Shown here: positions 193-38,170 of the stretch, piece by piece
Layout of the letters: every line of letters begins with the position of its first letter
How positions within the stretch are numbered: the stretch's first letter is position 1
From: Glaucostegus cemiculus
Taxonomy: Eukaryota
DNA length: 64,000 bases
Direction of reading: 5' to 3'
NCBI GenBank assembly: GCA_976551045.1
Contig: CDPCPM010000326.1
Span: forward strand, 248,001-312,000
Made by a program: the position numbers and the translations under genes
Notes under the pieces: generated by a model
The model's database searches: none
What the model was told of the DNA's origin: nothing
What the model saw: only the letters and a program-made list of their open reading frames with translations

Positions 193-602
193 ATAGCTTT
201 ATTGCTGCTCGACATCACACCCATGTGGGATAAAAATCTGCCCTCTCAACAAGCACATGTTCTGTTACAGTGTTTATATCACATCTGCCCCACCCCAGCA
301 ACTCCTCCCCCATTTACAGACTGCTTTAAAGAGTGAGTTCTTACTTAGTTTTTACAGCCAGTAAACACATCTGTTTTTTAATCATTTTACATGAGCAATT
401 CTAGATAATTTATAATAATTTTATAATAACAATTGAAGCAATTAAGACTGTTGATTGCTTTCTCTCTTCAGATTTGCTCCTTAATGCCTGAGCTACTTGC
501 TTAAAGTTTCACGAAGGAAATCTTCAAAGAGACTCTTAGCTGCGCAGCAAGTGCCTCCAGGTATCAGTACAAATGAGATTGCAACTTGGTTTTGGGACCA
601 CT

Positions 603-647
603 TCAAGCCTGCTTTGTTCCTTCAGCAATTGAAACAACCTTGAGGAG
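603..647 (-). CDS. Candidate last coding exon of unrecognised minus-strand gene (LLKVVSIAEGTKQA*)
   Basis: Acceptor gtttgtattgtAG at 649-648, phase 0 matching the preceding exon, TGA at 605-603. Downstream minus-strand ATTAAA (377-382) and AATAAA (198-203). Alternatives: acceptor at 674-673 (KIKMVCIVAPQGCFNC*) or read-through of the previous exon to TAA at 738-736. Confidence 0.3.
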   Translation of the reverse strand, partial: LLKVVSIAEGTKQA

Positions 648-762
648 CTACAATACAAACCATCTTAATTTTCTGTGCACAAAGCATAAGGCAGGTTTCA
701 TGCTTGCTCAACATTAAATATATATTTCCTACTTTTTATTCAATGGTGCTCCCATTATTTAC

Positions 763-907
763 CTTTGGACAGACTGAGTCCAGGTTGTCTTGTAAACCCT
801 TCATCTCTGCAATAATGCTGGAGTTTCTTCTGTCCATTGTAGCAAGGGGTGGAAGTTTCATTAACACTGACTCTGCTGCCACTCTGATACACAGTTGGAA
901 CTGGGCA
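763..907 (-). CDS. Candidate coding exon, 145 nt (AQFQLCIRVAAESVLMKLPPLATMDRRNSSIIAEMKGLQDNLDSVCPK)
   Basis: Acceptor ttccttcgttttccacattgacAG, donor AAG|GTAAAT. Lies within ORF 736..1023(-). Enters in phase 2 in frame with exon 1854-1952. Not recognisably repeat-derived. Confidence 0.55.
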
Positions 908-1853
908 CTGTCAATGTGGAAAACGAAGGAATAAATAATTGAAGTGGAAAAGATGGCAGGAATGTGAAGAAAGAGCAGGGGGAATGGAGCTAGTTGGTCC
1001 CCTCTTTCAAAGAACTGACACAAGCATGATGGGCTGAATGGCCTTCAGTGTTGCATCAATCTATGAAGAGCTACAATGCAGTGACTATAAATCTATTCAG
1101 GCAGATCAATGGCATCATGGTTTAGCCCAATTTTATTGCTGACACAGTTCCATTTTCTACAGTTATTGTAAGATGATCTTCATATTAACTTGCACTCATT
1201 CATTCAACTCAGCGCACATTGTTTGTTCAGATTATTGGAAATACTTGTAGTTATGGGTTCAAGTTGCACTCCAGGACTTTGCCAAGCAGAATAGCAGAAC
1301 AGAGGGAGTGCTGCAAAATCAGAGGTATAAGTTGGGTGAGGCTGAGATTTCATCTGACTGCTAAGGTGAAAATAGAGAACCCAATGGCACAATTACTCAC
1401 AGAATCCAGATTGGCAACTCTTTCTTCACCAAACCCATGAAGAACAGATTAACCATTGCTCTAGGTGCAGTTTTACTGTGTACAAACTGCCTGTCATGTT
1501 TGCCAACAAATCAGCACTTCAAAAGCATTTATGATGTCCTGAGGGAACTGCACTACATTTTAATTCAGAATTTTTCTCACCCTTTTTTTAAAATCCCAAG
1601 TAGAAAAGATCCATTAAATTTTGCTGTTGGCAATTTTTAATCTACGGCCTGACCTTAATGTGCTGTTTACCAAACAGTGCTCAAACATTGTAAAGCCCAC
1701 AATCCTAGTGGCAAATTAAAAGACTCTTGAGCTCTACAAATGGTTTGTCTTCAATATTTCAAACTGGCAGCACAGACATCAGTCTCTGTGCAGTTTCCCA
1801 ATGATCTTCAGATACACCACTGTGCCTTTTTGAAAACCCTAAGCGGTGCTTAC

Positions 1854-1952
1854 CACACAACATTCTTCATGGTGTTCACCTTCATTTCAGAACACTGGGA
1901 CAAACTCTTATTGTCTTTGGGCATTTGACATTGGTAGCAAAGTTTTCTAAAC
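1854..1952 (-). CDS. Candidate coding exon, 99 nt, phase 2-2 (FRKLCYQCQMPKDNKSLSQCSEMKVNTMKNVV)
   Basis: Acceptor tttgctttgccttttccatgatgtAG, donor GTG|GTAAGC. Only one of three frames is open, and it is the frame that joins both neighbours. Confidence 0.55.
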
Positions 1953-1999
1953 CTACATCATGGAAAAGGCAAAGCAAATTGATAACTTTTTTCCCAAAT

Positions 2000-2480
2000 A
2001 AAACATCCAAGATCCTTGGCCTCATGAACAGAGGGATGGTACACAGAAGCAATGAAGTCACACCGAACCATTGTAAATCAATGTTTGGGCCCCAGGTATA
2101 ATGCTGTGTAAAATTCCAAGCTCACTGTCTTAGGAAGGGCACCGAGGTTAGAAAGAGAGCACATGAAGTTCATGAACATATAGCCAGGACGGAAGACTTC
2201 AGTTATGAGGAGAGACTAGAGATACTGGGGCTGTTCTTCTTAGAAGAGGGAAGGTCAAGGGGAATTTAGAGAGGCAGACAGAAGAATGGAAGGTTTTATT
2301 ACAGTTAGTAAGGAGAAACTGTCTCCATTATCAGGAGGGTTAGAAACTGAATTGAAGGTAACTAAAAACCTCAAGGTGACATGAGATTGAAATATAAAAG
2401 GCACAAAGTTGTTATGAACTGGAAGGCACTGTTCAAAACAGTGTAGAATAGAGATTCTATGGAAACTTCCAAACAGGAAT
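2000..2480 (+). mobile_element. Highly decayed CR1-group LINE 3' fragment
   Basis: Degenerate match to the 3' ORF2/UTR of the younger CR1 copies (agttatgaggagagactagagatactggggctgttcttcttagaaga). Confidence 0.55.
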
Positions 2481-3208
2481 TGGATTGCAAAAGAAAAGAA
2501 AATACAGGACAATAGTGAAAAAGATCTGGGTAGAGAAGAAACTTTCAAAAAGTCAGCAGGGTAAGCAGGCCATACATGTCTCCCTCTTTCCAAAACATGT
2601 GTCAACAAAGTTTGTTCATTTCCTATCAAAACGATGGCTTTTATATGTTCAGCAGCGATCTGCATTAATAGTTTTAGCTGCACATTACAAAACATTGGGA
2701 GATTTTATTTTTTAACAGAAAAGCCAAGTGGACAGTAGCAGGAAGTAAAAACACTTAAGTGGATGGCGGTCAGATGGGTTCCGAGAATGTTTCGAAAAGA
2801 AGGGCGGACGTCCAAGCGACAGAGAGAATTAGTAGGAGGCGAGAATGTGAGTGAAGTGACTCATGGAAGAAATGAATGAGGGGTTGTTTGGTTTTATAAA
2901 AGTATAAAATGTGTGGTGTACTTGGTAAGAGTTTAGAAGTATTATTTTAGTTTATTCATTTGAAGGTTAAACTGAGTTCAAATTACAAAGCAACTATGAT
3001 TTTTGCTCATTACATATGTGAATGAAAACAGAGGTATTTGCAGATAATACACAAAGAAAGTCAATTGCAAAACATTCTAAAAATGGCATTTTGCAGAAGA
3101 AAGTCAGACTAGTTTGTAGCATTGCAACTTTGTGGTTACAAAGGTGAACTCCATTAGGAGACTTTGATGTACTCAATGCCCAAAATTCATTTTCAGCTAC
3201 GTTGGTCT

Positions 3209-3440
3209 GTAGGAGGAGAAACAGTCAAAGGTTCAGAGTGGAGACCCTTCATCAGTACTGAAACATTGACTCCGCTTCTCCTGAGCAGCCCAGACGCTGT
3301 GGGCCGAAGGGCCTAACCCTGTGTTGTACTGTCCTATGTTCTTCCCATAGATGTGGCCTGACCTGACCTGCTGAGTATTTCCAGAGTTTTCTGACCGAGG
3401 TTTAGATTCCAAGCATCTGCAGGATTTTTTAAATTTTCAA
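3209..3440. mobile_element. Penelope-like element terminal (pLTR) remnants in inverted arrangement, interrupted by a CR1 tail (3281-3340)
   Basis: gagacccttcatcag (CTGATGAAGGGTCTC on minus) and ctgacctgctgagtatttccag...ccaagcatctgcag, shared with copies at 4.8, 16.3, 25.9, 31.4, 48.7 and 57.4 kb. Confidence 0.55.
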
Positions 3441-4829
3441 TCCCTCTCCAGTCATAGCGATTATGGTAAATTGATACACCTTGATCTCAAAGAAAAGCTG
3501 ATTACTGTTGGTGGGGAAGTCTTGAAATCAGTAAATGGTCTATCCCAAGCAGGGGGAGGGGTGGGTGGGTGGGAGAGGAAGAGGACAATCAGGGCAGAAT
3601 TGTAGTTGGGAGTTGGAGGTTGGGAGATTGGGTGGGAATGAGTATGATTGTGGCCAGTATTGAGCAGGGTGGTCAGGAAGATCATAGGGACCTCAGGAAG
3701 ATGGGAGTGGATGCCAGAGGGTGTAAATATGGGACATGCAGGGGGCCCAATCCATGAGATGATTAAAATAGTTATGTAACTAAAGATGGTCACTCCCAGA
3801 ACTGCTGAATAGTACTCTGCTGCCAAAGATACAGCACAAGGAGAATGAAGTCATCCCATTCAAGGCTAAGTCACATTCAGTCACACACCAGTTAACTTTA
3901 CAGGTTGTTGCAAAAGTGATCTGGTGTTGGTTATTAACACATTTTACAAGAGGGATTAATTTAGATTGGCATCATGGCTGGTGCACCCCAGGACCTGCAC
4001 ACTGAGTCTCACAGGGGGAAGTTAGGACAATCACCTACAAACAGTTCAGATTAGCCTTCAAGGAGCATCTTAAAGGAGAGAAGGATAAAGGTTTAGAACC
4101 TAAGAAATAGGAGGAGGCTTTTTTGGGCCTTTGATCCTATTTTGCAATTTATCAAGATCATGGCTAACCTTTTATCTCAGAGCGATTTCCCTGCTCTACC
4201 CCCATATCTCTTCTTCCTAATAACACAATGACTGAGCCTGTACAACCCTCCAGATCGAGAATTTCAAATGTTCACCATCTTCTGTGTGAAGAGACTTCTC
4301 CTCATCTCAGTCCTACATGGCCTACCTCTTATTCTGAGACTGTGAACCTCTAGTTCCAGACTCCTCATCCAGGGGAAATGTCATGTTAAACCCTGTAAGA
4401 ATTTTGTAAGTTTCATTGATTTTTCCTCTCATTCTTCTAAACCAGAGGGACTACAGGCTGGTTCTATTCAATCCCTCCTGTATGGTAAACTCACCATCAT
4501 TAGAACCAGTCCAGTTAAGCTTTAAGAAGGGAATTTTGGAGATTAGTATGCCAGCATCTGAAGGCAGCAATGTGATAAATGTGGGAATAAGCAAGAGATC
4601 ACAGTAAAAATGCAGAGATGTCAGAGGTTTCAGAGATGGGGAGAGGCAACATAATGGAGGGAGGAGATGATTAAAGCTCTACTATTTGTGGTTGGTCTGT
4701 GATCTATGTCCTGATCATGTTACTGAGAAACAGCACACAATCAATTTCAACTTTGAAATTAAGAACTGATTTGGCATCAACTGCTCCTTGGAAAGGAGAT
4801 TTCCAAATTTCCAGCACCCTTTAAGTGCA

Positions 4830-4955
4830 GAGACAGAAGAGGCTGCAGATGCTGGAATCTGGAGGAACAAACAGTCTGCTGGATGAACTCAGCAGGTCGA
4901 GCAGTATCTGTGGGAGGAAAGGAATTGTCACTCCCTGTTCAGGCTGAAACCCTTT
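4830..4955 (+). mobile_element. Penelope-like terminal fragment
   Basis: ctgcagatgctggaatctggag...ctgctggatgaactcagcaggtcgagcagtatctgtgg, the same dispersed family as above. Confidence 0.55.
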
Positions 4956-5689
4956 GAGTGTAGATGTATCTGTTAAATTCACTGCTGACAGAGCAGGCTT
5001 TCACTACCAGTGAAAACAGGCTGGGAGGAGAGAAACAAAGTATTCCTCTTATCCATTCCCAAGATATCAATTTGGTTCAAATCAACTTTGAACTCCATTA
5101 ATTCTAGGATCTGTAAAAAAGGAGGGAATTGATAAGTTAGTGACTGTGAAACCAGTTTGTCTGGGAGTGTGGCATTTGGAAATTTGCACTTAACTGGTGC
5201 TGTTTGACCTGCTCAGTCTGTCAAAGCTCAAGAAATTCAGATTCAGCTGTGAATCAGTCGTGCAAAGTATGACCCTGGTTGATGCAGTCAGTTTCCCACT
5301 TTGAATTCTTTTGCTTCTGACTGAGTCGCATATGATGTGTTACAAAGACGCACTTCATATGCAAGCCACCAAATACAGACTCTCCTTCCCCATTCGAAAC
5401 AAAAAAGATGTTTGTGATCATGCAAATGCTGTACTAAGTCCAACGTTTCAGATTCTGTTCTCAATTAAGGCTCACTCAATTCCTGCCATCCATTATTCAC
5501 TAATTTAATTTAATTCATTAAGTCACTACTGACTAATTGAGAGCATCTGTTTGCTGCACAAGGCACTCTGTATTCTTGGATAGATTTCAACAGTCCTAAT
5601 TTAGGATCAAGTTACATTAATGTCAAAAGATATTTGGAACCCTTCTGTGGCCTTGGCTGTTGTAACTTAATGACCACTCACTAACTTAC

Positions 5690-5806
5690 ATCCCCAGCAA
5701 GTTCATTTTTCTTGGAAAGACAGGCTCTTTCTTCACTCTTCCTGGCCACCGCTGAAAGCATGCCGATTTTTTGGCATTTTCAACCCACCACTTCCCTGCC
5801 TCATTT
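5690..5806 (-). CDS. Candidate coding exon, 117 nt, phase 2-2 (NEAGKWWVENAKKSACFQRWPGRVKKEPVFPRKMNLLG)
   Basis: Long pyrimidine tract then aagcAG acceptor, donor GAT|GTAAGT. Only one frame is open (3' part of ORF 5686..5985). Confidence 0.55.
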
Positions 5807-7993
5807 CTGCTTTTAAAAGGGCAGGGTTGAGGGGTGGGGGAGGAGGAAGAGGAGCAAATATTGCAATAAAAGGAGGCTTCAGATGATTTGACAGGGAAAG
5901 TGAATGGTGTGGAGCAACAGTGTGATGTAGAGGAGGTAAGGCTGTTAGATCCAGGGCTCAGGGAGTTAATCCTATAACAGGACAAGGTTGTTCAGGAGAG
6001 AAGTTAGGAAACATTTCCTTGTAATGGTTGGTTGGTATAAAACACTCTCCCACAAAAAGCAATAGATATTAGCTCAAATGATCCATTTAAAATTCAGTGT
6101 TAAGTTATGGAGCCAAGTTCAGACAAAGATCTCGTCAATGCCGGAATAGGCTCAAGAGTTGAATGGCCTCCTCTTGGTCTGAGATTTCTTTCTCTTCTCT
6201 CCCCAAAAACTCTTTTGCTTTATTCCTCTTCCTACTTTTTCTCTGTCCTCTTCAACTAAAGTACTTTTAAAATAGATTGATTTAAGGCTTGATTTGCTGT
6301 CTTAGCGCTGTTCTTCACATCACCATTTGGACTGGAGGCGGTTATGAGGTCTCAGAGGCAGGGAGTTATGTGTGACATTCAAAGTTTGCGTAAATTGAGA
6401 CCTCTAACATAAAACAAAACAAGCTGTGGAGGGACAGTTGAACAGAAGTGAAAACCACATGAGTAATATCAGATTTATACAGGAAGTTGTTTAGATCACG
6501 ATTGATAACTGTTCTCCATGCAATAAAAATTACATTGAGACACTAGAGAAGGATTTAGTGTAGCAGTAGATGGGGTGATAACTATCAAGATAGAACATGC
6601 TGGAATTTGTTCAATAGAAGGGAAATACAAGGGGTGATGTGCATTAAAGGATAGTGAAGCAGTTGGATGGGGAAACAAGAAACAAAGCACTTGTCTCCGC
6701 GTGTTGGAGATTACGAAGCAGAGTCATAAATGAAGGATAGTCCCTACACCAGTGGGAAATCCAGGAGAAACATTACTACACTTTGGCTGTAAAGTTTGGA
6801 GCCCACCATACAGACAACAAGCAGTTGTATTTAACAAGAAGCTGAATAAATACATAAAGGAGAAAGGTTTAGAAAGATGTGTTGAATGGACAAGCTGGAG
6901 ACAGGCTTACTCGGGGCAGAAACACTAATTGGGCCGAATGGCCTGTTTCTGTACTGTAAACAATCAGATGTGATGTTACTGGTCAGTTGCTCACAGCACT
7001 ACACAGACATTGGAGATGTCCTTAGCTTTTCTTTAAATCAGTGTCTGTCTCCCCTGCCCCCCTCCAGCAACATTTACAATGGTCAGCTCACTGCAGCCTG
7101 AACCTTTCATTAGTTGTAGTTCTCATCATTTAATTTGCAGAAGAAGATTAATTAATTTGTATTCTGTTTCAATTCTCACATTGTAACTTAAAGTTTATCC
7201 AAGCGCCAATCAATACCTCAGCAGTAAAACTACTTGACCTCACATTTTTTCACAAAGATTCTGCTTTTTACACAAAAAATAGTGAAACATTCACCTCAGT
7301 GTTTATGAAATTTCACCTCCTGCTTGAAAGTAAAGTGACTAGAAGGAAAGGAACAGAGCGGAAAGTGTTAGAAGGTGGTGTCACCTGGACAGTGGTAGGA
7401 GGTACTGGTGAATGCTGGACACCAGGTGCACATGCTCAGCTGGCACCAGGTGAACCACCCAGGTCACCCCTATCCAAAGCTCAGACCTGCTGTCAATCTG
7501 TTCCCAGTACAGGCCACCCTCGCATTACAGCCATCCGGGTAGCGGAAAATTACTCTTCTTGAATTCATGGTCTCCTGTATCTTCTACCCGATGGAAGAGG
7601 AGAGAAGGGAGAATGTCCTGGGTGTGTGGGGTCCTGAGCTGGATAATGTTCGACTTGTTCACACATTGAGTTGTAGTTCCCATCATCTTATTCAGAGAGC
7701 TGTGAGGTTACTCAGGTCCTGGGGTGGTTTTCCTTCAGTGATCTGCCCCCTCCAACAGCTCCATGGAATGTACAAGCCCTCAATGGGACCACCGTCTGGA
7801 GATGGGACCAAAGGGAAGGGAAAGGGGGGAGGGTGGATACAGTGGCAGTGCTGGGAGGGGAGGGGTCCGGCAACACTCCCCACCACTGGTCACTACTGTA
7901 CTTGACTGTGGAGTGTGGGAAAGTGGGCTGTGAAAGAACAGGTTTGGATCAACTGTGGAAGCATGAGCATGATGAATTAGGATCACCTATAGC

Positions 7994-8760
7994 CTCGAGT
8001 TTTCTGGTTCCCTTTACCTGGGAAAAAGACTGTGTGCATCCACCCTTTCTATGCCCCTCGTTTTATGCACCTCTAAAGTCCTCACCTGCCCAAACCTCTT
8101 CCTATAACTCAGACCCTCAAGTCCTGGCAACATTCTCGTAAATCTTCTTTGCCATTTTTCCAACTTAATGATGTTGGAACAGGGTGAACAAAATTGTACA
8201 CAATACTCCAAGCACTGCCTCCCCATCATCTTGTACAAGTGGAACGTAACATCCCATCTCTTATATTCAATGCCCTGACTGATGAAGGCCAGCGTGCCAA
8301 ATGCCTCTCCACCACCCAGCAAACCTGTGACATCCCTTTTAGGAAACTATACGCCTGTACTTCTAGATCTCTCTGTTCCACAACTCTCCCCAAAGCCCAA
8401 CCATTCTCCCTATAAGTCCTACCCTGATTTGACTTCCCAAATTGCAATACGTTACACTTTTGATAAGATTGGATCAGGTTTCTTTATTAGTCACATGTAC
8501 ATCGAAACACACAGTGAAATGCATCTTTTGTGTAGAGTGCTCTGGGGGCAGCCCGCAAGTGTCGCCACACTTCCGGCACCAACATAGCATGCCCACAACT
8601 TCCTAACCTATACATCTTTGGAATGTGGGAGGAAACTGGAGCACCCGGAGGAAACCCACACAAACACGGGGAATTGAATTGGATGTCATTTGCCAATCCT
8701 CAGCCCACTTACCCAGTTGATCAAGATCTCCATGTAATTTCTGATAACTTTCTTCACTGT
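7994..8760 (-). mobile_element. CR1-type LINE fragment interrupted by a SINE at about 8461-8670
   Basis: ORF 8014..8322(-) has LEYCVQFCSP and QRRFTRMLPGLEGLSY; ORF 8226..8447(-) has EQRDLEVQ. Confidence 0.85.
8461..8670 (-). mobile_element. 5'-truncated V-SINE (same family as 40727-41017)
   Basis: V-domain text tctttggaatgtgggaggaaactggagcacccggaggaaaccca and tail tttattagtcacatgtacatcgaaa. Confidence 0.8.
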
Positions 8761-9150
8761 TTTACCACCTATTTTAGTATCACCTTCTATGGTAGGATGA
8801 GAGACTGAGCAGCCACTCTGAGAAAACTAACCTGTGACCAAGTGTTTACATGTCAGACAAGCTTCCACTACACACAGTGTGACACTCTGGGCAGAGCGAT
8901 ATCCTCAAATCCACCTGCAGCAAGCAGAAGAACAGTCCTGCTGGTGGCAGTTATACATCAGTGAATGTATACTGTATCTGCTTTGGTGACTTATGGACTG
9001 TTTCACATAGTGTGGCTCACAATAAATTAGAGGATGTAATGGGGAATAGAGGGAGGTGTGGATTTAGAGAGGAGACAGGATGAGCAGTGTAGCAGGGATG
9101 AGGGAGGAAAAGGAAGAAGTGTGGGCAAGTGTGTGTTCGTGGGTACATGC

Positions 9151-9156
9151 ATGTGC

Positions 9157-9207
<51 letters not shown>

Positions 9208-9216
9208 TGTGTGTGT
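9151..9216. repeat. (GT)n microsatellite
   Basis: About 30 GT/GC dinucleotides; explains the poly-HT and poly-CV ORFs. Confidence 0.97.
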
Positions 9217-9874
9217 TTACAATCTTGGTGGAACAATTAAACATGGGATATGCAAGAGGTCGATGATGGAGCAAATATTGGAGGGAAGATTTGGAAACAG
9301 GGTGAGAATGTTAAACTCAAGTTAACCCACTGCAGGCCAACATAGGTAAAAGGCAGTGGGCAGTGGGTTAGCAGCATGTTGGGTGACCTTGACTTTACAA
9401 AATACTAGAGTTTGAGGGTGTGATGGCATTTGGGTGCATGCCCAGAGCTTTAACTGGCACAGATATGGGATGATGATACTTATCTGTGCTGTATATTAGA
9501 GGAATGTGCCTCTTATTCCTTAATATGAAAGTCCAGGACAAGGTAATCTATGGGACGGCACAGTTTGAATGACCTAAATGAATTTTCATTTTTGTTGCAT
9601 CAGGAGCAAATGTAATCTCCTAACAGGGGGCCTGAAGAAACATTGAAAAGACAAAACCTAATAAACATTTGATTCAGAAACAAAATCAGTCTCATTCTCC
9701 TGAAGGCAGAGATTAATGGAATGGGATTTTGTTAATTGCAAAGCACTGATAACAGGGATGTGTGTCCAGGCCCCAGCTATCAGTGTACAACAAGATAATT
9801 AGGTTTCCTGTGGCAATTATGCTCTGGTGTGGCTCTGTCTTAATCCAATTTGCCAGAGATAGGGCTGATCATGA

Positions 9875-10090
9875 ACAACTTTTTGCACAGAGTGGTGGGT
9901 GCCTGGAACGCACTGCCAGGGGTGGTGGTGGAAGCAGATATGATAGAAATGTTTAAGAAGCATTCAGAGAAGGACATGAATAAGCAGGAAATGGAGGGAT
10001 ATAGACTTTGTGCAGATCAAGGGGATTAATTCAAATTGGCATCATGGTGAGACAAAGGACCATTCCTGTGCTCTGGTGTTCTGTATTCTG
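9875..10090 (+). mobile_element. CR1 3' UTR fragment
   Basis: cacagagtggtgggtgcctggaacgcactgccaggggtggtggtggaagcagata matches the 3' UTR of 13140-14913. Confidence 0.8.
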
Positions 10091-10164
10091 TGATTTCTCC
10101 TACTTCAAGGTAATGTTTGAATACATTCATGTCCACCTGAGAGCAGGTGGGACTTTAACATAAC

Positions 10165-10478
10165 ATGACACAGCCCCAGCAGCACAGGTTCAATCCTGAC
10201 ATCAGGTGCTGTCTGTGTGGAGTTTGCATGTTCTCCCTACAGCTACATGAGTTCCCTCTGGTTTCCTGTCACATCCTAATGAGGTGCAGGTCAGTAGGTT
10301 AGTTGGACAATGTACCTCACCCCCAGTGTGTAGGTAAGGAGTAGAATCTGGAGAGAATTGATGGGAATGTGGGGAGAAGGAAATAGGATCAATGTAGGAT
10401 TGGTGTAAATGGGTGCTTGATGGTCAGCACAGGTTTAGTGTGATGTAACGCTTGTTTCCTTACTGTGTGACTTTGTGG
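10165..10478 (+). mobile_element. V-SINE (HE1-like)
   Basis: B-box-like ggttcaatcc, then gctgtctgtgtggagtttgcatgttctccc V domain and CR1-like tail. Confidence 0.7.
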
Positions 10479-10579
10479 CTAATGTCTCACCCAAAAGATA
10501 GCACCTCTGACATTGTGGGGTTCCCTCAGTTCAGCACTGGGAGGATTAGTTTGTGATTTTGCTGAAGGTGGGGCTGGTG

Positions 10580-11335
10580 TACATGCAACAATGGTGCTGA
10601 GGTCAAGAGGGTTGAGAACTTCAAGTTCCTGGGTGTGAACATCACCAACAGCCCGCTCTGGTCAAATCACATAGATGCCATGGCCAAGCAAGCTCAGCAG
10701 CACCTGTACTTCCTCTGAAGGCTAAAGAAATTTGGTTTGTCCCCTTTGACTCTCACCAGCTTTTACTGATACACCATAGAAAGTATCCTATATGATGAAT
10801 CATGGCTTGGTAAGGCAACTGCTCTGTCCAGGACCACAATAAACTGCAGAGAGTTGTGAACACAGCCCAGCACATCATGGATCCCAGCCTCCTCTCCCTT
10901 GGACTCTGTCTTTACCTCTCATTGTCTTGGTGTAGCAGCCAGCATAATCAAAGATCCCACCCACCTGGGACATTCTCTCTTCTCTCCTCTTCCATCGGGT
11001 AGAAGATACAGGAGCCTGAGGGCACGTACCACCAGACTTAAGGACAGCTTCTGCCCCACTGTGATAAGACTATTGAACAGTTCCCTTATACAATGAGATG
11101 GACTCTGACCTCACGATCTACCTTGATGTGACCTTGCACCTTATTGCACTGCATTTTCTCTGTAGCTGTGACACTTTACCCTGTACTGTTACTGTTTTTA
11201 CCTGTACTACATCAATGCACTTTGTACTAACTCAATGTAACTGCACTGTGTAATGAATTGACCTGTACGATTGGTTTGTAAGACAAGCTTTTCACAGTAC
11301 CTTGGTACAAGTGACAATAATAAACCAATACCAAT
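10580..11335 (+). mobile_element. Rex1/Babar-type LINE 3' fragment
   Basis: FKFLGVNIT-like coding, HLGHSLFSPLPSGRRYRSLRARTTRLKDSF, and a tail ending gtgacaataataaaccaataccaat. Confidence 0.85.
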
Positions 11336-12667
11336 TGTTATCCAGTTCTGTACTTAAGACTATGGATTCAGTTGTCATACTGTAGTCCTGGATCAATAAC
11401 TCACAATTAAGCTGTCTATTTATTTATAGCTATTGTCTGCAAACTTTGACTTTACTGTTTGGTAATGGAGCAGGTTTCAGGCAGTGAACATGTCTATCAA
11501 TCAGCCAGCAGATTAACTAGTTACTGCACAAGGTGGATTAACTAGTTAATGCACTTCCAGCTGGAAGGTCTACTGTACAAACTGTGACCATAGTTGAGGT
11601 ACTCCATATCCAAATGAACAACAGCACATGGATCAAGGTCAGAGACAGATGTAAAGAAATCTTGCAAAGAAACATTATGAGATTACATCCTTTCAAATTT
11701 ACAGTGCAGGTACGGCTCATTCAGTTGAAAGGACTGTGCTGGCCTTCAGAGATGTACACAGCAGTGTGCCAGCAGGGCAGTGGTTCACCAAGTATGTTCA
11801 GTCATGGGATTATGTATGTACTTGTATGATATACACCTGTGTAAATTGCCCCTTTGAAGAGGTCAAATTTAATTTCCTTTGCATGTCTTTGGTGGTGTTA
11901 CTGCTCCATCTGGGGCTCCTTCAACCCCTCATCTCATCCTATGACTCCACCTGCCTATTCCACGGAGCGTCATGGTTGTGACATCTGAATCAAATATGAG
12001 CTGAGACTATGCAAAAAAATACAGTAACAGTAAAACAGATTGAGTTCCTCAGTGAAGCAAATCTGACACATTGGATATACTTTTCCACAAGGACAGTTTT
12101 GATTGCAAAGTCATGTCTGCCCATGAGACTCTTTTTCTCAGGCGAATAATGCCCACTGACTACTTCAGTAGTGAGGAGCGAAGTGAATATCATATGGTCA
12201 CTGGCGGAATATCGTCTCATGCAGGCAGATTAACTTTCCTCCCTCCCATCCATTTCCTTTGCTGCTGGTTCTGACGTTCCACACACTCACAATACTCTCT
12301 AAATGTGGGTGACAGATTATACTTGCAGTTCCTCCTGACCTGGTGACAGGGACATGGCTCCTGACTTTCGCTTCATCAAGCCTTTACTTTGTGCCTCTTT
12401 TGAAGGTCGGTTCAAACTTTAGAACTAAGTACTGGCACAAGGAGCACATAACACTTCTTTACATCTTACTGTGTGTTGGAGTTTGTGATTAATTAAACAC
12501 TTCCAGCTGATTGACTAATATATTCCTTTACTGAGCAGGACTCTTATTGAAAATGTTCTGTTTTTCTGTTCAGATCTAATTGTATACTTATGTGATGTAT
12601 TTACTGGTCTCTTTGTTTGCAGGTACTACTGAACAACAGAACAATCAGAACAAAACAATTGACTCAC

Positions 12668-12682
12668 CGAACAACGTGATCC
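12668..12682 (-). CDS. Candidate 15-nt microexon, phase 2-2 (xDHVVR)
   Basis: gcttttgtgcttttccataatcgtAG|GGATCACGTTGTTCG|GTGAGTC. Near-consensus sites on both sides, frame-preserving and stop-free in the gene's frame. Confidence 0.4.
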
Positions 12683-13139
12683 CTACGATTATGGAAAAGC
12701 ACAAAAGCACTTGATAGAAACATTCATGTTTAAGTATGCTGACACATTGGGTGTGCAGGTGTGCAGTTGCATGTGAGACCATGTTTGTGCATGGCCATTT
12801 GTGGCTGCATGCATGCAGATGCACACATCTGTATTTGTGGAGTTACATAGCCATGGAAGTTGCAGCAATTTCAAGCCAACATGCAGAACTGAGTGTCAGT
12901 AGGGCAAGTTCATCTTGCAGGTAATTTTCATCTACGTGGGGGTGTTATCAGGTCAAAGGCTAACGAGAGGTTGACAAGATGGTTCATGGTGGATCCTGCA
13001 CTATGTCAGCCTGAAAGGATCATGTTGTCTGTGTCCTTCTGGTGTCTGTGTCAGCTCACAATAGTTCACAACATCTCTCCTTATGACACTGGGGCTGCCT
13101 GAAGTCTCCACCAATAGATTATTGCGTTTCAGGACCAAC

Positions 13140-14913
13140 ATTGCAAGCAATGTGAGGAACAGGAGAATGACAAGGGTGAGGGTAGGGCAGCTCAGGGATA
13201 AAGGGGGAAGTGTGCCTGGAAGAGAAGGAGGTAGAGGAGGTCCTTAGTGAATACTTGCATAGGTGTTCACCAGGGAGAGGGACTTTGATGAATGTGAGAG
13301 TGCAGAACAGGCTAATGTGCTGGAGCATACTGAGGTTAAGAGGCAGTGCTAGAGCTGCTGAGAACCATTAGGATAGATGTCCCTGGAGCCAGATGTAATA
13401 TACCCCAGGCTACTACAGGAAGTGAAGGAAGAGATTGCTGGGATGTTGGCGATGATACTCACATCCTCCCTGACCACAGGAGTGGTTCCAGAGGATCAGA
13501 GGATGGCAAATGTGTTCCATTATTCAAGAAAGGGAATAGAGATAATCCTGGGAATTATAGACCGGTGAGTCTTACGACAGTGGTGGGTAAACTATTGGAG
13601 AAGACTCCTAGGGATAAGATTTACAAGCATTTGGAGAAACATGGTCTTATTAGGGATAGTCAGCATGGCTTTGTGAGGGGCAGGTTATGCCTCACAAGCC
13701 TGAGTTTTTTGAGGAGGTGACAAACAAATTGACGTAGAGCTGTGGCTGTGGTGTATGTGGACTTTAGTAAGGTGTTTGACAAGGTTCCTCATGATAGGTT
13801 CAACCAGAAATTCACAAAGCATAGGTTTCATGGAAACTCGGCTGAGTTGATTTGGAATTGGCTTACACACAGAAGGCAGAGGATTGTAGTAGATGGAGAA
13901 TATCCTGCATTGAGGTCGGTGACTAGTGGTGTTCTGCAGGGATCTGTTCTGGGACCCCTATGTGATTTTTATAAATAACTTGGATGAGGAAGTGGGGGGT
14001 GGGTTTGCAGATGACATGAAGGTTGGAGGTGTTGTGGACAGTGTAGAAGGTTGTCATAGACAGGGATATAGACAGGATGCAAAGTTGGGCGGAGAAGTGG
14101 CAGATGGAGTTCAATCCTGAAAAGTGTGAAGAGATACACTTTGGAATAACAAACCTGAAGGCAGAATACAAGGCCAATGGCAGGATTCTTAGTGGTGTGG
14201 AGGAACAAAGAGATCTTGGGATCCAAGTCCATAGATCCCTCAAAGTTGCTGTGCAGGTTGTTAGGGTGGATAAGGAGGTGTATGGTGTGCTGGCCTTCAT
14301 TAGTTGGGGAATTGAGTTCAAGACCGTGAGGTAATGTTGCAGCTCTATAGAACTCTGGTTAGACCACACTTGGAGTATTGTGTTCAGTTCTGTTCACCCC
14401 ATTATAGGAAGGATGTGGAAGATTTAGAGAGGGTGCAGAGGAGATTTACCAGGATGCTGCCTGCATTAGAGAACATGTTTCCTGAGGAAAGGTTGAGCGA
14501 GCTAGGGATTTTCTCTTTGGAACAATGCAGGATGAGATTGACGATAAAAATGTATAAGATTATGGGAGGCATAGATAGAGTGGACAGCCAGCACCTTTCC
14601 CCAGGGCGGCAATGGCCAATACCAGAGGACATCCTGTTTATGTGAGTGGAGGAAAGTTTAGGGGAGATATCAGGGGCAGGTTTTTACACAGAGAGTGGTG
14701 GGTGCCTGGAATGTTCTGCCGGGGGTGGTGGTGGAGGCTGATACAATAGGAACATTTGTAAGACTCTTAAATAGGCACATGGATGTCAGAAAAATGGAGC
14801 TTTATGGGCTGTGTTGGAGGGAAGGGTTAGATTGATCAAGGAGTAGATGTTTATATAGGTCAGCATGACATTGTGGGCCAAAGGGCCTGTACTGTGCCAC
14901 ACTGTTCTATGTT
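13140..14913 (+). mobile_element. CR1 (HER1-like) LINE, 5'-truncated, disrupted ORF2 (reverse transcriptase)
   Basis: PLFKKGNRDNPGNYRPVSLT, QHGFVRGR, VDFSKVFDKVPH, GVLQGSVLGP, FADDMK, WQMEFNPEKCE, LVRPHLEYCVQF spread over several frames; tail gggcctgtactgtg...ttctatgtt. Confidence 0.95.
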
Positions 14914-15244
14914 AATCCTAGAGCTACAGCCTTGCCTTAGGTTTTATTATTATGGAATTATTTGTGCTGAGGGCAGGCGTGGCAGGGAGAGTGGGGAAGA
15001 GTTATTTGACCAGCTGAGGGTGATGGGCTAGGGAGAAATCATGGCTGGACAGCTCCAGGAATGTATTGAACCAGATGCTGAACTTACAAACAGCCTGCAG
15101 CCAGGATCTGCGGTCAAGGCTGGGGCACAAACCCAACAGCAAATTTCACCCAGCTCTGTTCTATCAGATTAACATGAAATTCAACCAAAATGCTGGACAT
15201 AAATTAACAGCCCATGCTGTGTTATTATGTAGTTATAATAAAGA

Positions 15245-15268
15245 ACTACAGTTCCCAGCAGGCAATGC
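15245..15268 (+). promoter_or_regulatory. ZNF143/Staf (ACTACA-extended SBS)-like motif in the Gypsy LTR
   Basis: ACTACAGTTCCCAGCAGGCAATGC versus the known ACTACAnnTCCCAnnATGC motif; ETS-like CAGGAAGT about 20 nt downstream. Confidence 0.5.
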
Positions 15269-15635
15269 AAGTGGTCACATGGGAGAACAGGAAGTAGCTG
15301 GAAAGAGCAGGAAAAGCCTGTCAGTTGTAATTCTGTGCAGCCTGTTGTTGTTTTGTTGTCTTTCAATAAAAGTTCAGATGTTAAACACACGCCAAATTTG
15401 TCTTCTGATGAAGAACAAACATAACATGGTGTCAGAAGTTGGTGTGAGGTCTGAACAAGGGAGGTAAACAAATACTGTGTGCAGTTGAGAAAGAGACTCA
15501 GTGAGTACGAAAGAAAAGCTGTAAAAAGAAGGAGAAAAAGCCGGCCGGCGTGGTGAGGGAGCACATTGCTCCTGAGGTTCAGCAGTCACCGGATTTGCTA
15601 AGCGAGATTCAGGTGAGAGCCCGAAAGTTCCCGTT

Positions 15636-15792
15636 ATGGATAAGCTAAGTCCTCCCAAGCCTATGCAGTTTACTGGCAACCTAGCCGATAATTGGAAATG
15701 CTTCAAACAGCGAATCAGCATATATTTAGATGCTAGTTGAGTGGGAAGGAACGATGAAAAATTGAAAGCGTCTATTTTTCTGCACATGATTG
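15636..15792 (+). pseudogene. gag: Gypsy gag N-terminal remnant
   Basis: MDKLSPPKPMQFTGNLADNWKCFKQRISIYLDAS*VGRNDEKLKASIFLHMI fits the Gypsy gag N-terminal pattern (GNLAENWxxFKQ...KxAxLLH). One internal stop, then truncated. Confidence 0.8.
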
Positions 15793-16324
15793 TCTCGTGA
15801 TGGAGAACAAACATAACACGTGCCTCATTTATAATGTGGGTGCAGTACAAATAGTTGAATTTAATTACTAAAATCCTCCAATATATATTCAGCACACAAA
15901 AGATAAATGACTAAAAATTCAGACAGTTCTCTGAAATGTACACAGAATAGACCCAATGTTATTAGTACCTATAGAGAAAATCGTGTTCCTTAAATCGTGT
16001 AGATTGGTTGTGCTTGCATTCAATAGCGTAATTATATCTCCTGTTTACTTCCTGCACCACATTCCCTGTGTCTGGGGGATACAACTGCAATTCAAGTGCA
16101 GCTGGATGATGAGAAGATGCTGGATTTAGTTATTTTGTGACCTTACAGACACCGTTATTATTAAGGTGGTTACAGTGAAGGTGTTTCTATCTGAGGGCCA
16201 GTGTCCATTAGTGAGAGCAGACAGCAGACAAGTCTAAAGGAATTCAGCAGAGAACTCCTTCCCAGGAGAGCAGTGAACATGTGGGACTTGAGGTGGAAAG
16301 AAAGGTGTTATAGAGAAACCAGAT

Positions 16325-16450
16325 TCAGGGTCTTGGCCCCAAAACGCTGACTATGGCTTTACCTCCACAGATGCTGCTTAACCTGCTGAGTTCCTCCAGC
16401 AGTTTGTCATTTGATCCAGATTCCAGCATCTGCAGTGTCCTGTGTCTCTA
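16325..16450 (-). mobile_element. Penelope-like terminal fragment
   Basis: agggtcttggccccaaaacg...ccacagatgctgcttaacctgctgagttcctccagca...ccagcatctgcag. Confidence 0.55.
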
Positions 16451-17369
16451 TTGATGAGGTTATCAGGTTGGTCGATATGATTTTAGAGAGAGGATGGTTA
16501 CAGAGAGAGAACACAAACAAAGGAACATTGAAAGCCCTGGCAGAATTAGTGGGAGAGAAACACTGAGTGAATATTACAGATGGAAAACCTGCAGCAAAAC
16601 CGGCTGGGTCTGATACAACAGAAGAAACAAGTTACCTGAAATGACTGAATTTGATATAGAGTCTGGAAGGCTATAATAAGCTGAGAATGGTACCGTTCTT
16701 CAAGCATACCTTGGAAGGAGATGGTGATGGGGAGATGGAGAGGGATGGGAGATCAGTTGCCACAAACTGATTAGTCTGTTGTAAAATATTTCTCCTAGTC
16801 AAGAACTATTTATTAGAAATATAAGGTCAATTTTTTAAAAATATTCTGAGTTCAAGGAACTATCTAAAGGCCAATGGAATATGGAAGTATAAGACAATTG
16901 CTTTAGGAGGAACGTTACATTGTGTATCATCCACAAAATGCACTGCAGTAACATGTAAAGGCTTCTTCCATTTCATGTCCCAAACCTGAGAGCTCTACTG
17001 GCAAGGAGGACAAAGACAGCGGGTGCATGTGAACGTCACCAAGTTATCCTTTAAGTCTTGCACCTTTCTAACTTCAAACGATATTTGAAACTATATAACA
17101 TAAGGAGCTATCAGGGCAGGTGTACAAACAATCTGCTGAAAGAAGTAGGCTTGAGGAACATCCTAAATGAACTTGGGGCCCTGGCAGATGAGAACAGCCA
17201 CAGAAGTGGAATGATGAAAGCTGGTGATGATCATTGTCAGAGTTGGAGGAGGTGCCAGTGATAAGGACGAGCAAGGTCAGGTGCACCATGAAGGTGATAG
17301 CCTGCACACATACAGTTCAGGTCACAGGGAGCTGGCAATTACATCAATTGGCTTCTACGTGACAACGTG

Positions 17370-17730
17370 AACGATTGTTCAGGTATGTCCAAATAACAGA
17401 TCATCCAACTTGGCTCGTTGCCAATCTACCTGCAATCATCTGTGAAGTGAGGAAAAGGCTCATCAGCAGTGCCATAAAGCAGCACGCTCCAACCAACCAC
17501 CTGCTCGCTGATTCCCAGCTTTGGTTTCATCAGGATCACTTCACTTCAGACCTCATCACAGCCTTGATCCAATCATGAGTCAAAGGGCGGTATTCCAGAG
17601 GTGAGTGCACCCAGTCAGCATGGGACTGAGTGTGGCATCAAGGAGCCCTGGTAAACCTGGAGTCAATGGGCATGAATGGGGAAACCCTCTAATAGCTGGA
17701 TTCTTATCTCAAACAAAGAAAGATAACAAA
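17370..17730 (+). mobile_element. Old CR1-group LINE RT fragment (family of 31620-33140)
   Basis: Shares cagacctcatcacagccttg and aagtcaatgggcat text with 32190-32330. Confidence 0.6.
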
Positions 17731-17823
17731 AGCTACTATAAGTGAGCCAGGTGCTGAGCTACTGGGATTTCTGAACAGTTGGATACTGGATTATCAGGAA
17801 TTTACTCCATAACCCAAACTCAC

Positions 17824-17910
17824 AGCATGTGTCGTTGTTGTCTTGTTGAATGGTGACGCTTTGTTTTGGGGGCTCTTTGCTGGGAGGTCATACACCAGTC
17901 AGGGCAGTTA
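17824..17910 (-). CDS. Candidate coding exon, 87 nt (NCPDWC-MTSQQRAPKTKRHHSTRQQRHM), with possible start ATG at 17891
   Basis: Acceptor ccttgtgttcactgagctctcAG, donor GCT|GTGAGT, phase 2-2 and in frame with the downstream candidate exons. Confidence 0.45.
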
Positions 17911-28887: not shown

Positions 28888-29524
28888 TGTATCTGTAGGT
28901 GTGAAGCACAGTCGCTCAGAACTCTGGACAGCAGCATCTTGAGTATCAGACCTACCCCGAGGATGAGAAGGATTGGTTTATACCCGGCTCTGCATCTCAG
29001 CTTTCATCACGTTAAACTATTCCGGAATGATGCAAATGCCGGGGCAGGAGGTGGTGGGAAAAGTGGGAAGGGAATCCTTACCAGACCATGAAGAGCTAGC
29101 GACTCATTCACTACAAGAATGACACACCCTCAGGGGAACGCTGTGGACCAATTAAATAGGAAGGAATAAAATAGCCTGTGCATAGTGGTGCACAAAATGG
29201 ATTTTATTAAGTAAGCATTTCTGCATGGTCAGTTTTAAAATATCCAGTATGTGCAAGCTTAAGATTCTGTTCACAGTATTTTCCAGTACACTGGACACAG
29301 AGGTCATTTTGCATTTGTCATGTGCGCACATATTGGTCACATGAAGCTATAAGTGAACTGTCTTGTTGATGGGATGATAGGAATAAATAGATTGGTGATC
29401 AGGGATTGGGCTTCTTCAGTTCACAGGAAATACTGGTCATCACTCAGATCTCAGACTTATGCCTGGCACTTTCAGACACGCTGAACTGGAAGGATTTTGT
29501 TGAAAGACTAGAGGAGATGGAGAG

Positions 29525-31288
29525 GTGAGGGCTTGTGACGGTGACTTCTCCCTACCGGACCAGCTGAATGAATTCTACTCAAGGCTTGAGGCCATGAACA
29601 ACACACCTGCTTCAAAAGCCCTGCCTTTGCCTGGAGAACAGGCTCTGAGTCTCACCCCGATCAACGTGGAGAGAGCCCTGTCACAGGTCAACCCTCGAAA
29701 GGCTGCGGGACCGGACAACATACCGGGACAGGTACTTAGGGACTGTGCGGGCCAGCTAAAAGATGTACTTGCAGACATCTTCAACATCTCCCTACAGCAG
29801 GCTGTTGTTCCTAAGTGCCTCAAATCTGCCACTATCATACCTGTTCCGAAGAAGTCACCTGCAATGTGTCTGAATGACTACCGTCCCATAGCTCTAACAC
29901 CTATTGTCATGAAATGCTTTGAGAGGGTAGTCATGAAGCACATCAGATCAATCCTTCCCCCAACCACAGATCCTCATCAGTACGCATATTGGGCAAATAG
30001 GTCCACAGATGATGCGGTTTCCTCTGCCCTGCACTCTGCGCTATACCACTTAGAAAGGAAGGATTCGTACATTAGACTACTGTTCATTGACTTCAGCTCC
30101 GCATTCAATACCATCATCCCACAACAGTTAATCAGGAAGTTGAGTGCACTGGGCTTTAACACACCTCTCTGCAACTGGATACTGGACTTTCTTACTTGCA
30201 GGCCACAGTTGGTCAAAATTGGTGTAAACACCTTGAGCATCATCACACTGAGCACTGGCTCCCCGCAGGGTTGTGTGCTCAGCTCGCTCCTGTTCACCTT
30301 GTTGACTCATGAATGTATGGCCAGATCCAGCTCCAACCACATTGTTAAGTTCGCTGATGACACAATAGTGGTGGGTCTTGTCACAGACAACGATGAGTCA
30401 GGCTAAAGAGAGGAGGTGAAGCAACTAGCCATGTGGTGCAGGGACAACAACCCCTCCTTGAATGTGGAAAAAACCAAGGAGATGATAGTGGATTTCAGAA
30501 GGGGTCACCGTGTGCATGCCCTGCTGACCATCAACGGGTCTGCTGTAGAACAAGTAGGCAGCACCAAGCTGATGACCTGACTTGGTCCACTAACACCACG
30601 GCCCTCACCAAGAAAGCCCAGGAACGCCTCTACTTCTTGCGGAGACTGAGGAAAGTGAACTCCCATCCTTCGATAATGAAAACTTTTTATAGAGGGACCA
30701 TCGAGAGCATCCTAACTCAATGTATCACTGTCTGGTTTGGGAGCTGCTCAGCTGCTGGGCGGAAGTCCCTCCAGAGGATAGTAAGGGCAGCGGAGAAGAT
30801 CATAGGTGTCTCTCTCCCCTCCGTCGCAGACATATACAAGGACCGATGTGTTAGGAAGGCCAAAAATATAATGTTGGATCCTTCTCACACCTCCCATCAT
30901 CTCTTCACACTCTTGCCGTCTGGAAAGAGGCTCAAATGCATCAGGGCGAGAACGACGAGGCTGTGCAGTAGCTTCTTCCTGCAAGCCATCAGAACTGTGA
31001 ACTCTCTCATTCCTCCATCTACCCTGTTAACACTAAAGGATGCTAGGTGCTCAGAAATGCACCAGCACTTTAAATGCCTGCTACCAGTTCGTTCACTTTA
31101 AAACTATTTATTTAACCTGCTGAATTTAATTTAATTTTTGTGGTTTTAATGTTATTTTTAGTGTGTGTCAGTGTGTCTCTTTTGCTTGTTATTTAATGTG
31201 ACGTGCACCTGTGGAGGACAGTATCTCGCTCCTATGCAGACTGTGTGTGTGTATATGGTTGTGACAATAAAATGATTCTGATTCTGAT
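29525..31288 (+). mobile_element. Rex1/Babar-type LINE, 5'-truncated, RT domain with one stop and one frameshift
   Basis: [70 protein letters not shown]; tail gtgacaataaaat(gattct)n. Confidence 0.95.
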
Positions 31289-37672: not shown

Positions 37673-38170
37673 TGGAGCTTGCAATGTGTGTGGCTGCTGC
37701 TTTCCCTACACTGTATCTCAGAAGGTATCTCACTGGGAGCTTGCAATGTGTCTGGCTGCTGCTTTCCCTACACTGTATCTCAGAAGGTATCTCACTGGGA
37801 GCTTGCAATGTGTGTGGCTGCTGCTTTCCCTACACTGTATCTCAGAAGGTATCTGACTGGGAGCTTGCAATGTGTGTGGCTGCTGCTTTCCCTACACTGT
37901 ATCTCAGAAGGTATCTCACTGGGAGCTTGCAATGTGTGTGGCTGCTGCTTTCCCTACACTGTATCTCAGAAGGTATCTGACTGGGAGCTTGCAATGTGTG
38001 CAGCTGCTGCTTTCCCTACACTGTATCTCAGAAGGTATCTCACTGGGAGCTTGCAATGTGTCTGGCTGCTGCTTTCCCTACACTGTATCTCAGAAGGTAT
38101 CTCACTGGGAGCTTGCAATGTGTGTGGCTGCTGCTTTCCCTACACTGTATCTCAGAAGGTATCTAACTGG
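37673..38170 (+). repeat. Minisatellite, 8 x 62 bp
   Basis: Unit gggagcttgcaatgtgtgtggctgctgctttccctacactgtatctcagaaggtatctcact starting at 37673, 37735, 37797, 37859, 37921, 37983, 38045 and 38107; near-identical copies. Confidence 0.97.

What the first reader, a model, noticed from the sequence alone, without database searches (positions are those of the whole stretch)
603..17910. Hidden spliced minus-strand gene with four consecutive phase-2 introns and an unrecognised protein
Seen: exon-like islands in non-repeat DNA (17910-17824, 12682-12668, 5806-5690, 1952-1854, 907-763, 647-603) have good AG/GT sites and splice into one stop-free frame. From ATG 17891 the product is 162 aa: MTSQQRAPKTKRHHSTRQQRHMLDHVVRNEAGKWWVENAKKSACFQRWPGRVKKEPVFPRKMNLLGMFRKLCYQCQMPKDNKSLSQCSEMKVNTMKNVVCAQFQLCIRVAAESVLMKLPPLATMDRRNSSIIAEMKGLQDNLDSVCPKLLKVVSIAEGTKQA. 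The first four exons are symmetric (87, 15, 117, 99 nt). In two of them only the joining frame is open. PolyA signals follow the stop. Inference: a real, possibly uncharacterised or lineage-restricted gene with a basic N-terminus, a CxxC and a helical C-terminus. I see only a weak by-eye likeness of CAQFQLCIRVAAE..SIIAEMKGL to the alpha-catenin/vinculin tail helices (CHQLNICSKVKAE..SLIQAAKNL), not enough to name it. The exons were hand-picked, so selection bias is possible and exons may be missing.
Basis: partly seen in the sequence, partly recalled or inferred. Interest (0 to 1): 0.7.

Follow-up and report, generated by a model that had tools for sequence, protein, structure and literature searches.

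The report
Unproven orphan gene tail beside GFRA
Four of the six proposed exons look like the tail end of a real gene that would make a small helical protein with no known relative in this ray-like fish, but the first two exons look arbitrarily picked, no RNA or cross-species evidence could be had, and a chance look-alike is nearly as likely.

Summary
The six segments, their AG/GT ends, intron phases 2-2-2-2-0, the stop-free 162-codon frame and two polyA hexamers are present as described. The genome is a batoid close to sawfish. The chain lies on the minus strand about 48 kb behind a GFRA gene, in a roughly 560-kb stretch with no other recognisable gene. Exons 3-6 (5806-603) are the credible part: under strict splice and size criteria they are the only three-exon chain outside known genes in 1.08 Mb, and a heptad helix runs across the last junction. 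But 12 non-gene chains have a higher raw score, and each exon sits where weak real exons and strong pseudo-exons overlap. Exons 1-2 are unsupported (44 equally eligible segments upstream). No homologue was found in libraries holding 15 named chondrichthyan species, although a 70%-identical orthologue would almost surely be found. Likeness to alpha-catenin/vinculin, Cas, attractin and saposin failed shuffle tests. No RNA run was available. Verdict: about even odds that exons 3-6 end a real, lineage-restricted or fast-evolving gene (0.45) rather than a pseudo-exon chain (0.38); the 162-residue protein as written is unlikely (about 0.1).

The parts
17824..17910 (-).
12668..12682 (-).
5690..5806 (-). 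Candidate exon 3 (117 nt, phase 2-2): very strong donor (top 0.1% of background GT), weak acceptor, one open frame, purine-rich, single copy
1854..1952 (-). Candidate exon 4 (99 nt, phase 2-2): good acceptor and donor, one open frame, carries the CxxC
763..907 (-). Candidate exon 5 (145 nt, phase 2-0): predicted helix-proline loop-helix; best-scoring of the six
603..647 (-). Candidate last coding exon (14 codons and TGA) after a 115-nt intron; continues the heptad pattern of exon 5
377..382 (-). ATTAAA, candidate polyadenylation signal
198..203 (-). AATAAA, candidate polyadenylation signal
926..1062 (+). Old dispersed repeat in intron 4, antisense to the chain and abutting the pyrimidine tract of exon 5 (LINE-tail label recalled, from no call)
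   Evidence: 16 of 18 non-self matches fall here
17734..17813 (.). Dispersed repeat just 3' of the exon 1 donor
   Evidence: 40 of 40 non-self matches listed

Best explanation
Exons 3-6 are likely the 3' end of a real but unannotated, lineage-restricted or fast-evolving gene whose true 5' exons are not the ones picked, and they would encode a small intracellular protein predicted to end in a hairpin of two amphipathic helices that likely binds a partner helix or dimerises. Shown: splice dinucleotides, phases, open frame, polyA hexamers, single copy, no signal peptide or membrane span in the 162-residue reading. Predicted: helices at exon-5 residues 2-17 and 26-45, and hydrophobic residues at 3-4 spacing (I131, M135, L138, L142, V145, L149, V152, A156) that cross the exon 5/6 junction. 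Inferred: transcription, splicing, translation, and the adaptor role (bundle-forming helices without a catalytic motif, as in FAT- or vinculin-tail-type bundles by design only). Inferred: narrow expression such as gonad, since no unmasked CpG island lies between -107 kb and +117 kb and no annotation in relatives was hit.
For: An unbiased dynamic-programming search trained on this genome's own exons picks exactly exons 3-4-5-6 as the best chain at this place. With donor>=8, 80-200 nt, score>=7, and again with donor>=7, 70-220 nt, score>=6, it is the only phase-compatible triple outside known genes in 1.08 Mb on both strands; the only other triple is in the aminotransferase gene. In 537 kb fetched after the shape criteria were set, those criteria picked chains in real genes (annexin, aminotransferase) in 2 of 2 and 1 of 1 cases for three settings, 1 of 2 for a fourth, and none for the fifth. 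Codon scores of exons 3-5 (-0.04, -0.06, -0.03) lie above the null mean of -0.22. Hydrophobic moment on the Fauchere-Pliska scale is reached by 1 of 107 null chains and 27 of 500 shuffles. AlphaFold2 on exon 5 alone: pLDDT 74.5 in the proposed frame against 49.4 in the other open frame (one control).
Against: No homologue: exon 5 in the word search and the full phmmer scan (2 hits, both repeat-protein artefacts), exon 3 in the word search, although the library holds 15 named chondrichthyan species with a 94% match in Pristis pectinata for a control exon, and simulated 70%-identical orthologues of exon 5 are found 299 of 300 times by phmmer. Raw chain score ranks 18 of 185; 12 of the 17 higher chains hold no recognisable gene exon. 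Looser criteria give 5 and then 15 other triples outside genes. The strict thresholds were set after seeing this chain. Each exon is exceeded by 6-27% of 219 matched null candidates and lies at or below the 13th percentile of 23 real exons (that real set is biased upward). On the Eisenberg scale the helix signal is ordinary (23 of 107).
Confidence: 0.45

Rival explanations
1. The chain is a set of pseudo-exons in an intergenic desert: good splice-like words and open frames that a careful reader can string together by chance, never spliced or translated.
For: No homologue at high sensitivity. 12 non-gene chains outscore it in 980 kb, about 0.8 per 64 kb. Single-exon ranks are only 47, 74 and 144 of 1017 in 344 kb. 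Exons 1-2 are plainly interchangeable. The exon 5 acceptor tract abuts an antisense repeat. Pseudo-exons can outnumber exons 10:1 (PMC4318891, passage seen).
Against: No other non-gene triple passes the two strictest settings in 1.08 Mb; typical exon sizes, three strong donors, a heptad crossing a junction, a near terminal exon and polyA hexamers all coincide.
Confidence: 0.38
2. Some of the segments are spliced, but as a non-coding RNA running towards the GFRA gene, or as a decaying former gene whose frame has not yet broken.
For: Splice signals are stronger than the coding signal; the locus is a desert behind a developmental receptor gene; no protein homologue.
Against: Only one frame is open in exons 3 and 4 and it is the one that joins to the better-folding frame of exon 5; an open frame over 134 codons is unlikely in a non-coding transcript (my estimate: under 1%).
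Confidence: 0.1
3. It is a very diverged member or remnant of a known family, most interestingly a third attractin-type gene in the slot that attractin and attractin-like 1 hold behind the paralogous GFRA genes.
For: Attractin-domain exons lie on the opposite strand behind GFRA genes on C19 and C164, the same arrangement as here. The C19 attractin tail exon aligns without gaps over 23 residues (8 of 3000 shuffles).
Against: The C164 paralogue does not (512 of 2000), nor does the two-sequence profile (200 of 3000); the alignment crosses an intron that attractin lacks; the MASRPF-bearing exon scores at chance (280 of 300); no GBD_ATRN match on C326. About 30 sequences of four families were tried, so one p of 0.003 is unremarkable. 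Catenin/vinculin, Cas and saposin also fail.
Confidence: 0.07

Closest known systems
Taxon-restricted (orphan) spliced genes, and fast-evolving vertebrate genes missed by automated annotation (PMC9465101, passages seen: cytokines missed by Ensembl's pipeline were found by HMM plus synteny)
   Same: Multi-exon, small product, no similarity hit, would have to be found by position and RNA.
   Different: Neither expression nor conservation is shown here; no signal peptide, and three of the four 3' introns' phases differ from the phase-0 pattern of helical cytokines (pattern recalled).
alpha-catenin / vinculin tail (Pfam PF01044)
   Same: Long amphipathic helices joined by a proline-containing loop; a 13-residue look-alike stretch.
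   Different: No significant score against this genome's three alpha-catenin tails and vinculin tail (89-241 of 1000 shuffles; profile 136 of 1913; HHalign probability 0.4%); different intron positions; no other PF01044 match on the contig (a floor).
Cas-family C-terminal domain (Pfam PF12026)
   Same: C-terminal helical bundle of similar size by eye.
   Different: Profile of 69 C-termini: 337 of 2837 scored shuffles reach the score; N-terminal SH3 profile 1319 of 2876; the three Cas genes of this genome lie on other contigs.
Attractin / attractin-like 1 cytoplasmic tail
   Same: Same position and orientation relative to a GFRA gene; one 23-residue alignment with the C19 copy.
   Different: Not held by the C164 paralogue or the profile; no membrane span, no MASRPF motif (importance of the motif: PMC8254101, start of abstract seen), different exon sizes and phases.
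Pseudo-exons (PMC4318891, passage seen)
   Same: Canonical AG/GT, exon-like size, no proof of inclusion.
   Different: Here three or four lie in a phase-compatible row with a stop and polyA hexamers, which is rarer.

Membership tests
alpha-catenin/vinculin (PF01044) | Significant profile similarity to the tail bundle | tested here: not met
   (136 of 1913 shuffles; HHalign 0.4%); no Pfam hit exon by exon
alpha-catenin/vinculin (PF01044) | Upstream head and middle domains in the same gene | tested here: not met
   0 of 53 matches on C326 (stricter first look, weak matches may be missing)
Cas family (PF12026 plus SH3) | CAS_C domain similarity | tested here: not met
   61 of 1868; 337 of 2837
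Cas family (PF12026 plus SH3) | N-terminal SH3 domain | tested here: not met
   (1319 of 2876)
Attractin family | Position tail-to-tail with a GFRA gene | tested here: met
Attractin family | Membrane span followed by the MASRPF motif | tested here: not met
   best 19-residue hydropathy 1.48; motif exon 280 of 300 shuffles, no credible tblastn hit in 544 kb
Attractin family | Tail similarity shared by both paralogues | tested here: not met
   (8 of 3000 for C19) but (512 of 2000 for C164; profile 200 of 3000)
Saposin-like proteins (PF03489) | Six cysteines at saposin spacing (spacing recalled) and profile similarity | tested here: not met
   cysteines at 44, 72, 75, 87, 100, 106, 146; profile score reached by 2240 of 2268 scored shuffles
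Four-helix cytokines | Signal peptide and phase-0 introns (features recalled) | tested here: not met
   no hydrophobic stretch in the first 40 residues; phases 2,2,2,2,0. The true N-terminus is uncertain, so the signal-peptide part is conditional
Taxon-restricted protein-coding gene | Intact spliced reading frame with stop and polyA signal | tested here: met
Taxon-restricted protein-coding gene | No homologue outside the lineage | tested here: met
   with control 34 and sensitivity 82; only exons 3 and 5 were searched, singly
Taxon-restricted protein-coding gene | Spliced transcript | not testable with these tools
   no run could be laid on the locus
Taxon-restricted protein-coding gene | Purifying selection among close relatives | not testable with these tools
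   no related genome is held

The most novel reading that the evidence does not exclude
A real, so far unannotated batoid gene for a small helical-bundle protein of no known family sits behind the GFRA2-like gene, in the slot that attractin genes occupy behind the sister GFRA genes, and is either newly born or has diverged beyond recognition from all 15 sampled shark, ray and chimaera proteomes.
Probability: 0.4. Interest if true: 0.55.

Novelty: new member of a known kind. Interest (0 to 1): 0.27.

Why it matters
Cartilaginous fishes evolve slowly, so a multi-exon gene with no detectable relative even in sawfish, skates and stingrays would be an unusual case of gene birth or very fast divergence, and it would be easy to date across batoid genomes. 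It would also show what fills the place left by a lost attractin sister gene. If it is a chance chain, the case is a useful calibration: exon chains of this raw score arise about once per window in ray intergenic DNA.

Tried and rejected
RNA: no RNA holder listed for 180-910; this is no evidence either way, and no reads could be laid. ESM Atlas gave no result. Pfam on single exons: 0 of 4 and 0 of 5; weak, since 2 of 5 real neighbour exons and the real attractin exon also gave none. PDB by sequence and Foldseek on the 48-residue model: none. Metagenome contigs: none. Rfam in the window: 0. Own genome: no paralogue or processed copy of exon 5 or exon 3 (2 chance-level hits); no paralogue in 200 kb behind the GFRA genes of C19 and C151 (best E 3.4). 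A first misreading that exon 5 itself was a repeat was corrected: the matches are in intron 4; one of seven copies aligns weakly 25-57 nt into the exon. The second open frame of exon 5 was rejected (codon score -0.32 per codon; pLDDT 49.4). A first hand-set splice matrix was too crude and was replaced by one trained on 61 acceptors, 57 donors and 6532 codons from this genome (sites picked automatically, some wrong; one broken copy left out). The branch-point check had a faulty pattern and is not used. By-eye likeness to BAG, Bcl-2, SOCS-box, MYND, Ly6 and PWWP motifs (all recalled) was not pursued beyond the negative Pfam scan. LZTS genes are not on this contig. Literature searches for a gene at this position found nothing relevant (listings only; open-licence PMC and bioRxiv only; no supplements read, and gene tables in supplements could list such a gene). 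The spliced peptide was compared only with profiles built in scripts; it was not run against Pfam, PDB, the large protein libraries or AlphaFold, so matches that straddle junctions remain untested.
Full report
Observation. All six segments exist with AG and GT ends, and they join into a stop-free frame of 162 codons from the ATG at 17891 to the TGA at 605-603. Intron phases are 2,2,2,2,0; only the joining frame is open in segments 1, 3 and 4, two frames in segment 5, all three in segment 2. ATTAAA (382-377) and AATAAA (203-198) follow. None of the segments is masked when 1.08 Mb of the contig is compared with itself and other loci, and exons 3 and 5 are single copy in the 2.85-Gb genome. Dispersed repeats lie at 926-1062, next to the exon 5 acceptor (16 of 18 non-self matches), and at 17734-17813, next to the exon 1 donor.

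Organism and surroundings. A control exon of a Cas-family gene is 94% identical to Pristis pectinata and 73-84% to 13 other named sharks and rays, so the genome is a batoid near the sawfishes. The window is C326:248001-312000. GDNF/GAS1-domain exons lie on the plus strand upstream, and by eye the receptor's last coding exon starts at window position -48037. The candidate therefore faces the GFRA gene tail to tail. The name GFRA2 is inferred: the GFRA copies on C19 and C164 have attractin-domain exons behind them and that on C151 shares a contig with an alpha-catenin. On the other side no gene could be recognised until an annexin at +517 to +562 kb, followed by GMCL1-like, TGFA-like and aminotransferase exons (Pfam confirms the annexin and, weakly, the aminotransferase; the other two names are recalled and gave no Pfam hit). 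No unmasked CpG island lies between -107 kb and +117 kb.

Is it more than chance? I trained splice matrices and a codon table on this genome's own exons. Donors of exons 3, 4 and 5 are in the top 0.1%, 0.8% and 0.8% of background GT; acceptors of exons 4 and 5 in the top 2-3%; acceptors of exons 1 and 3 are at the 5th percentile of real sites. Codon scores of exons 3-5 are -0.04, -0.06 and -0.03 bits per codon, between the null (-0.22) and real exons (+0.21); exon 1 scores -0.18. Singly they rank 144, 74 and 47 of 1017 candidates in 344 kb; real GFRA exons scored 9.2-12.3 and 42.8 against 7.3-10.7 for these. A chain search recovers exactly exons 3-4-5-6 as the local optimum, ranking 15 of 108 in 444 kb and 18 of 185 in 980 kb; 5 of the 17 higher chains contain exons of recognisable genes and 12 do not. 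By shape the chain is rarer: it is the only triple outside known genes in 1.08 Mb at the two strictest settings, where the only other triple is in the aminotransferase gene, but 5 and 15 others appear at two looser settings. These thresholds were chosen after seeing the chain; the partial safeguard is that in 537 kb fetched later the same criteria picked almost only real genes. A discriminant on codon score, GC step, purine content, T depletion and acceptor leaves the three exons in the overlap: exceeded by 27%, 9% and 6% of 219 matched null candidates, and at the 0th, 9th and 13th percentile of 23 real exons, a set biased upward by how I found them.

Homologues. Exon 5 found nothing among proteins of 85-2000 residues. 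The full phmmer scan of 1.84 billion representatives gave 2 hits, a low-complexity repeat and a bacterial FIVAR-repeat protein. Exon 3 shared three words with no candidate. The control shows 15 named chondrichthyan species in the word-search library; the phmmer library derives from the same collection by its description but was not controlled separately. Simulated orthologues of exon 5 are found by phmmer 299, 262 and 161 times of 300 at 70, 60 and 50% identity, and share three words 267, 143 and 66 times. So a conserved, annotated orthologue is very unlikely; an unannotated one or one under about 55% identity is not excluded. Exons 4 and 6 were not searched in these libraries.

Family likenesses. 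Against this genome's alpha-catenin and vinculin tails the spliced peptide scores within shuffles (89-241 of 1000; profile 136 of 1913), as for Cas C-termini (61 of 1868; with 69 sequences 337 of 2837) and the Cas SH3 region (1319 of 2876). Position suggested attractin: one tail exon of the C19 gene aligned over 23 residues (8 of 3000), but the C164 paralogue (512 of 2000) and the profile (200 of 3000) did not, and the MASRPF exon scored at chance. Saposins failed (2240 of 2268). Many families fit by eye because the pattern is a generic amphipathic helix.

What the product would be. AlphaFold2 without an alignment folds exon 5 as two helices (2-17, 26-45) with pLDDT 74.5, against 49.4 for its other open frame; Foldseek finds no match. 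Hydrophobic residues at 3-4 spacing run from I131 to A156 across the exon 5/6 junction. The best 25-residue hydrophobic moment is reached by 1 of 107 null chains and 27 of 500 shuffles on one scale, but by 23 of 107 and 218 of 500 on another. There is no signal peptide or membrane span. An in-frame Met at residue 62 has A at -3 and would give 101 residues, but three out-of-frame ATGs precede it in exon 3, so an upstream start is likelier. If real, the most likely mechanism is a small intracellular helical adaptor that packs its last two helices into a hairpin and binds a partner helix or itself; this is inference from helix pattern alone.

Weighing. My rough estimate is that strict-quality chance chains and real genes that both pass those criteria and lack any annotated relative each occur in the order of once per 100-500 windows; the helix evidence tips this slightly towards a gene, the empty searches pull it back. 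I give 0.45 to a real coding 3' end, 0.38 to pseudo-exons, 0.10 to a non-coding or decaying transcript, 0.07 to a hidden member of a known family, and about 0.1 to the 162-residue protein as written.

Literature. PMC4318891 (passages seen): pseudo-exons can outnumber exons 10:1. PMC9465101 (passages seen): cytokines missed by automated annotation were found by HMM and synteny. PMC8254101 (start of abstract seen): MASRPF motif of the attractin family. Searches for a described gene at this place gave nothing relevant (listings only). Earlier scan notes held nothing near or like this locus.

Noticed in passing
G000:C326, window positions about -236 kb to -48 kb, + strand (L126, L009-L007): A GFRA gene, probably GFRA2, with a 108-kb intron between the first two GDNF domains and a 135-nt third-domain exon; five GFRA-like multi-exon loci were seen in the genome (C19, C151, C164, C290, C326).
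   Followed up: partly
G000:C326 against C19 and C164: Attractin-domain genes lie tail to tail with the GFRA genes on C19 and C164, but none was found behind the GFRA gene on C326, where about 560 kb are empty up to an annexin gene.
   Followed up: partly
G000:C326, window positions +517 kb to +889 kb (L208-L245): Annexin, GMCL1-like, TGFA-like and aspartate-aminotransferase-like genes follow on the same contig; the middle two names are recalled.
   Followed up: partly
G000:C326, window positions +260641 to +265451, + strand: Another balanced chain of three exon-like segments (116, 101, 80 nt) with a terminal segment, score 35.8, outside any recognised gene; counted as null but could be real.
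   Followed up: no
window 29427-29524, + strand: Best-scoring single exon-like segment in the window (15.7), directly before a LINE remnant at 29530; no Pfam hit.
   Followed up: partly
window 52922-53729 and 37674-38170: Minisatellites of 33-nt (24.5 copies, G+C-rich) and 62-nt (8 copies, 97% alike) units that create long spurious open frames.
   Followed up: no
window 29504-31101 and 48920-50397, + strand: Two long LINE reverse-transcriptase remnants with frames of 234-324 codons.
   Followed up: no
G000:C73:29031786-29032390 (L026): An intron-poor vinculin-like copy with in-frame stops, apart from the spliced vinculin gene on C176; probably a processed pseudogene.
   Followed up: no
G000 whole genome: Only three Cas-family C-terminal domains were found (NEDD9-, BCAR1- and CASS4-like by eye); no fourth, EFS-like copy among 7 scored candidates.
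   Followed up: no
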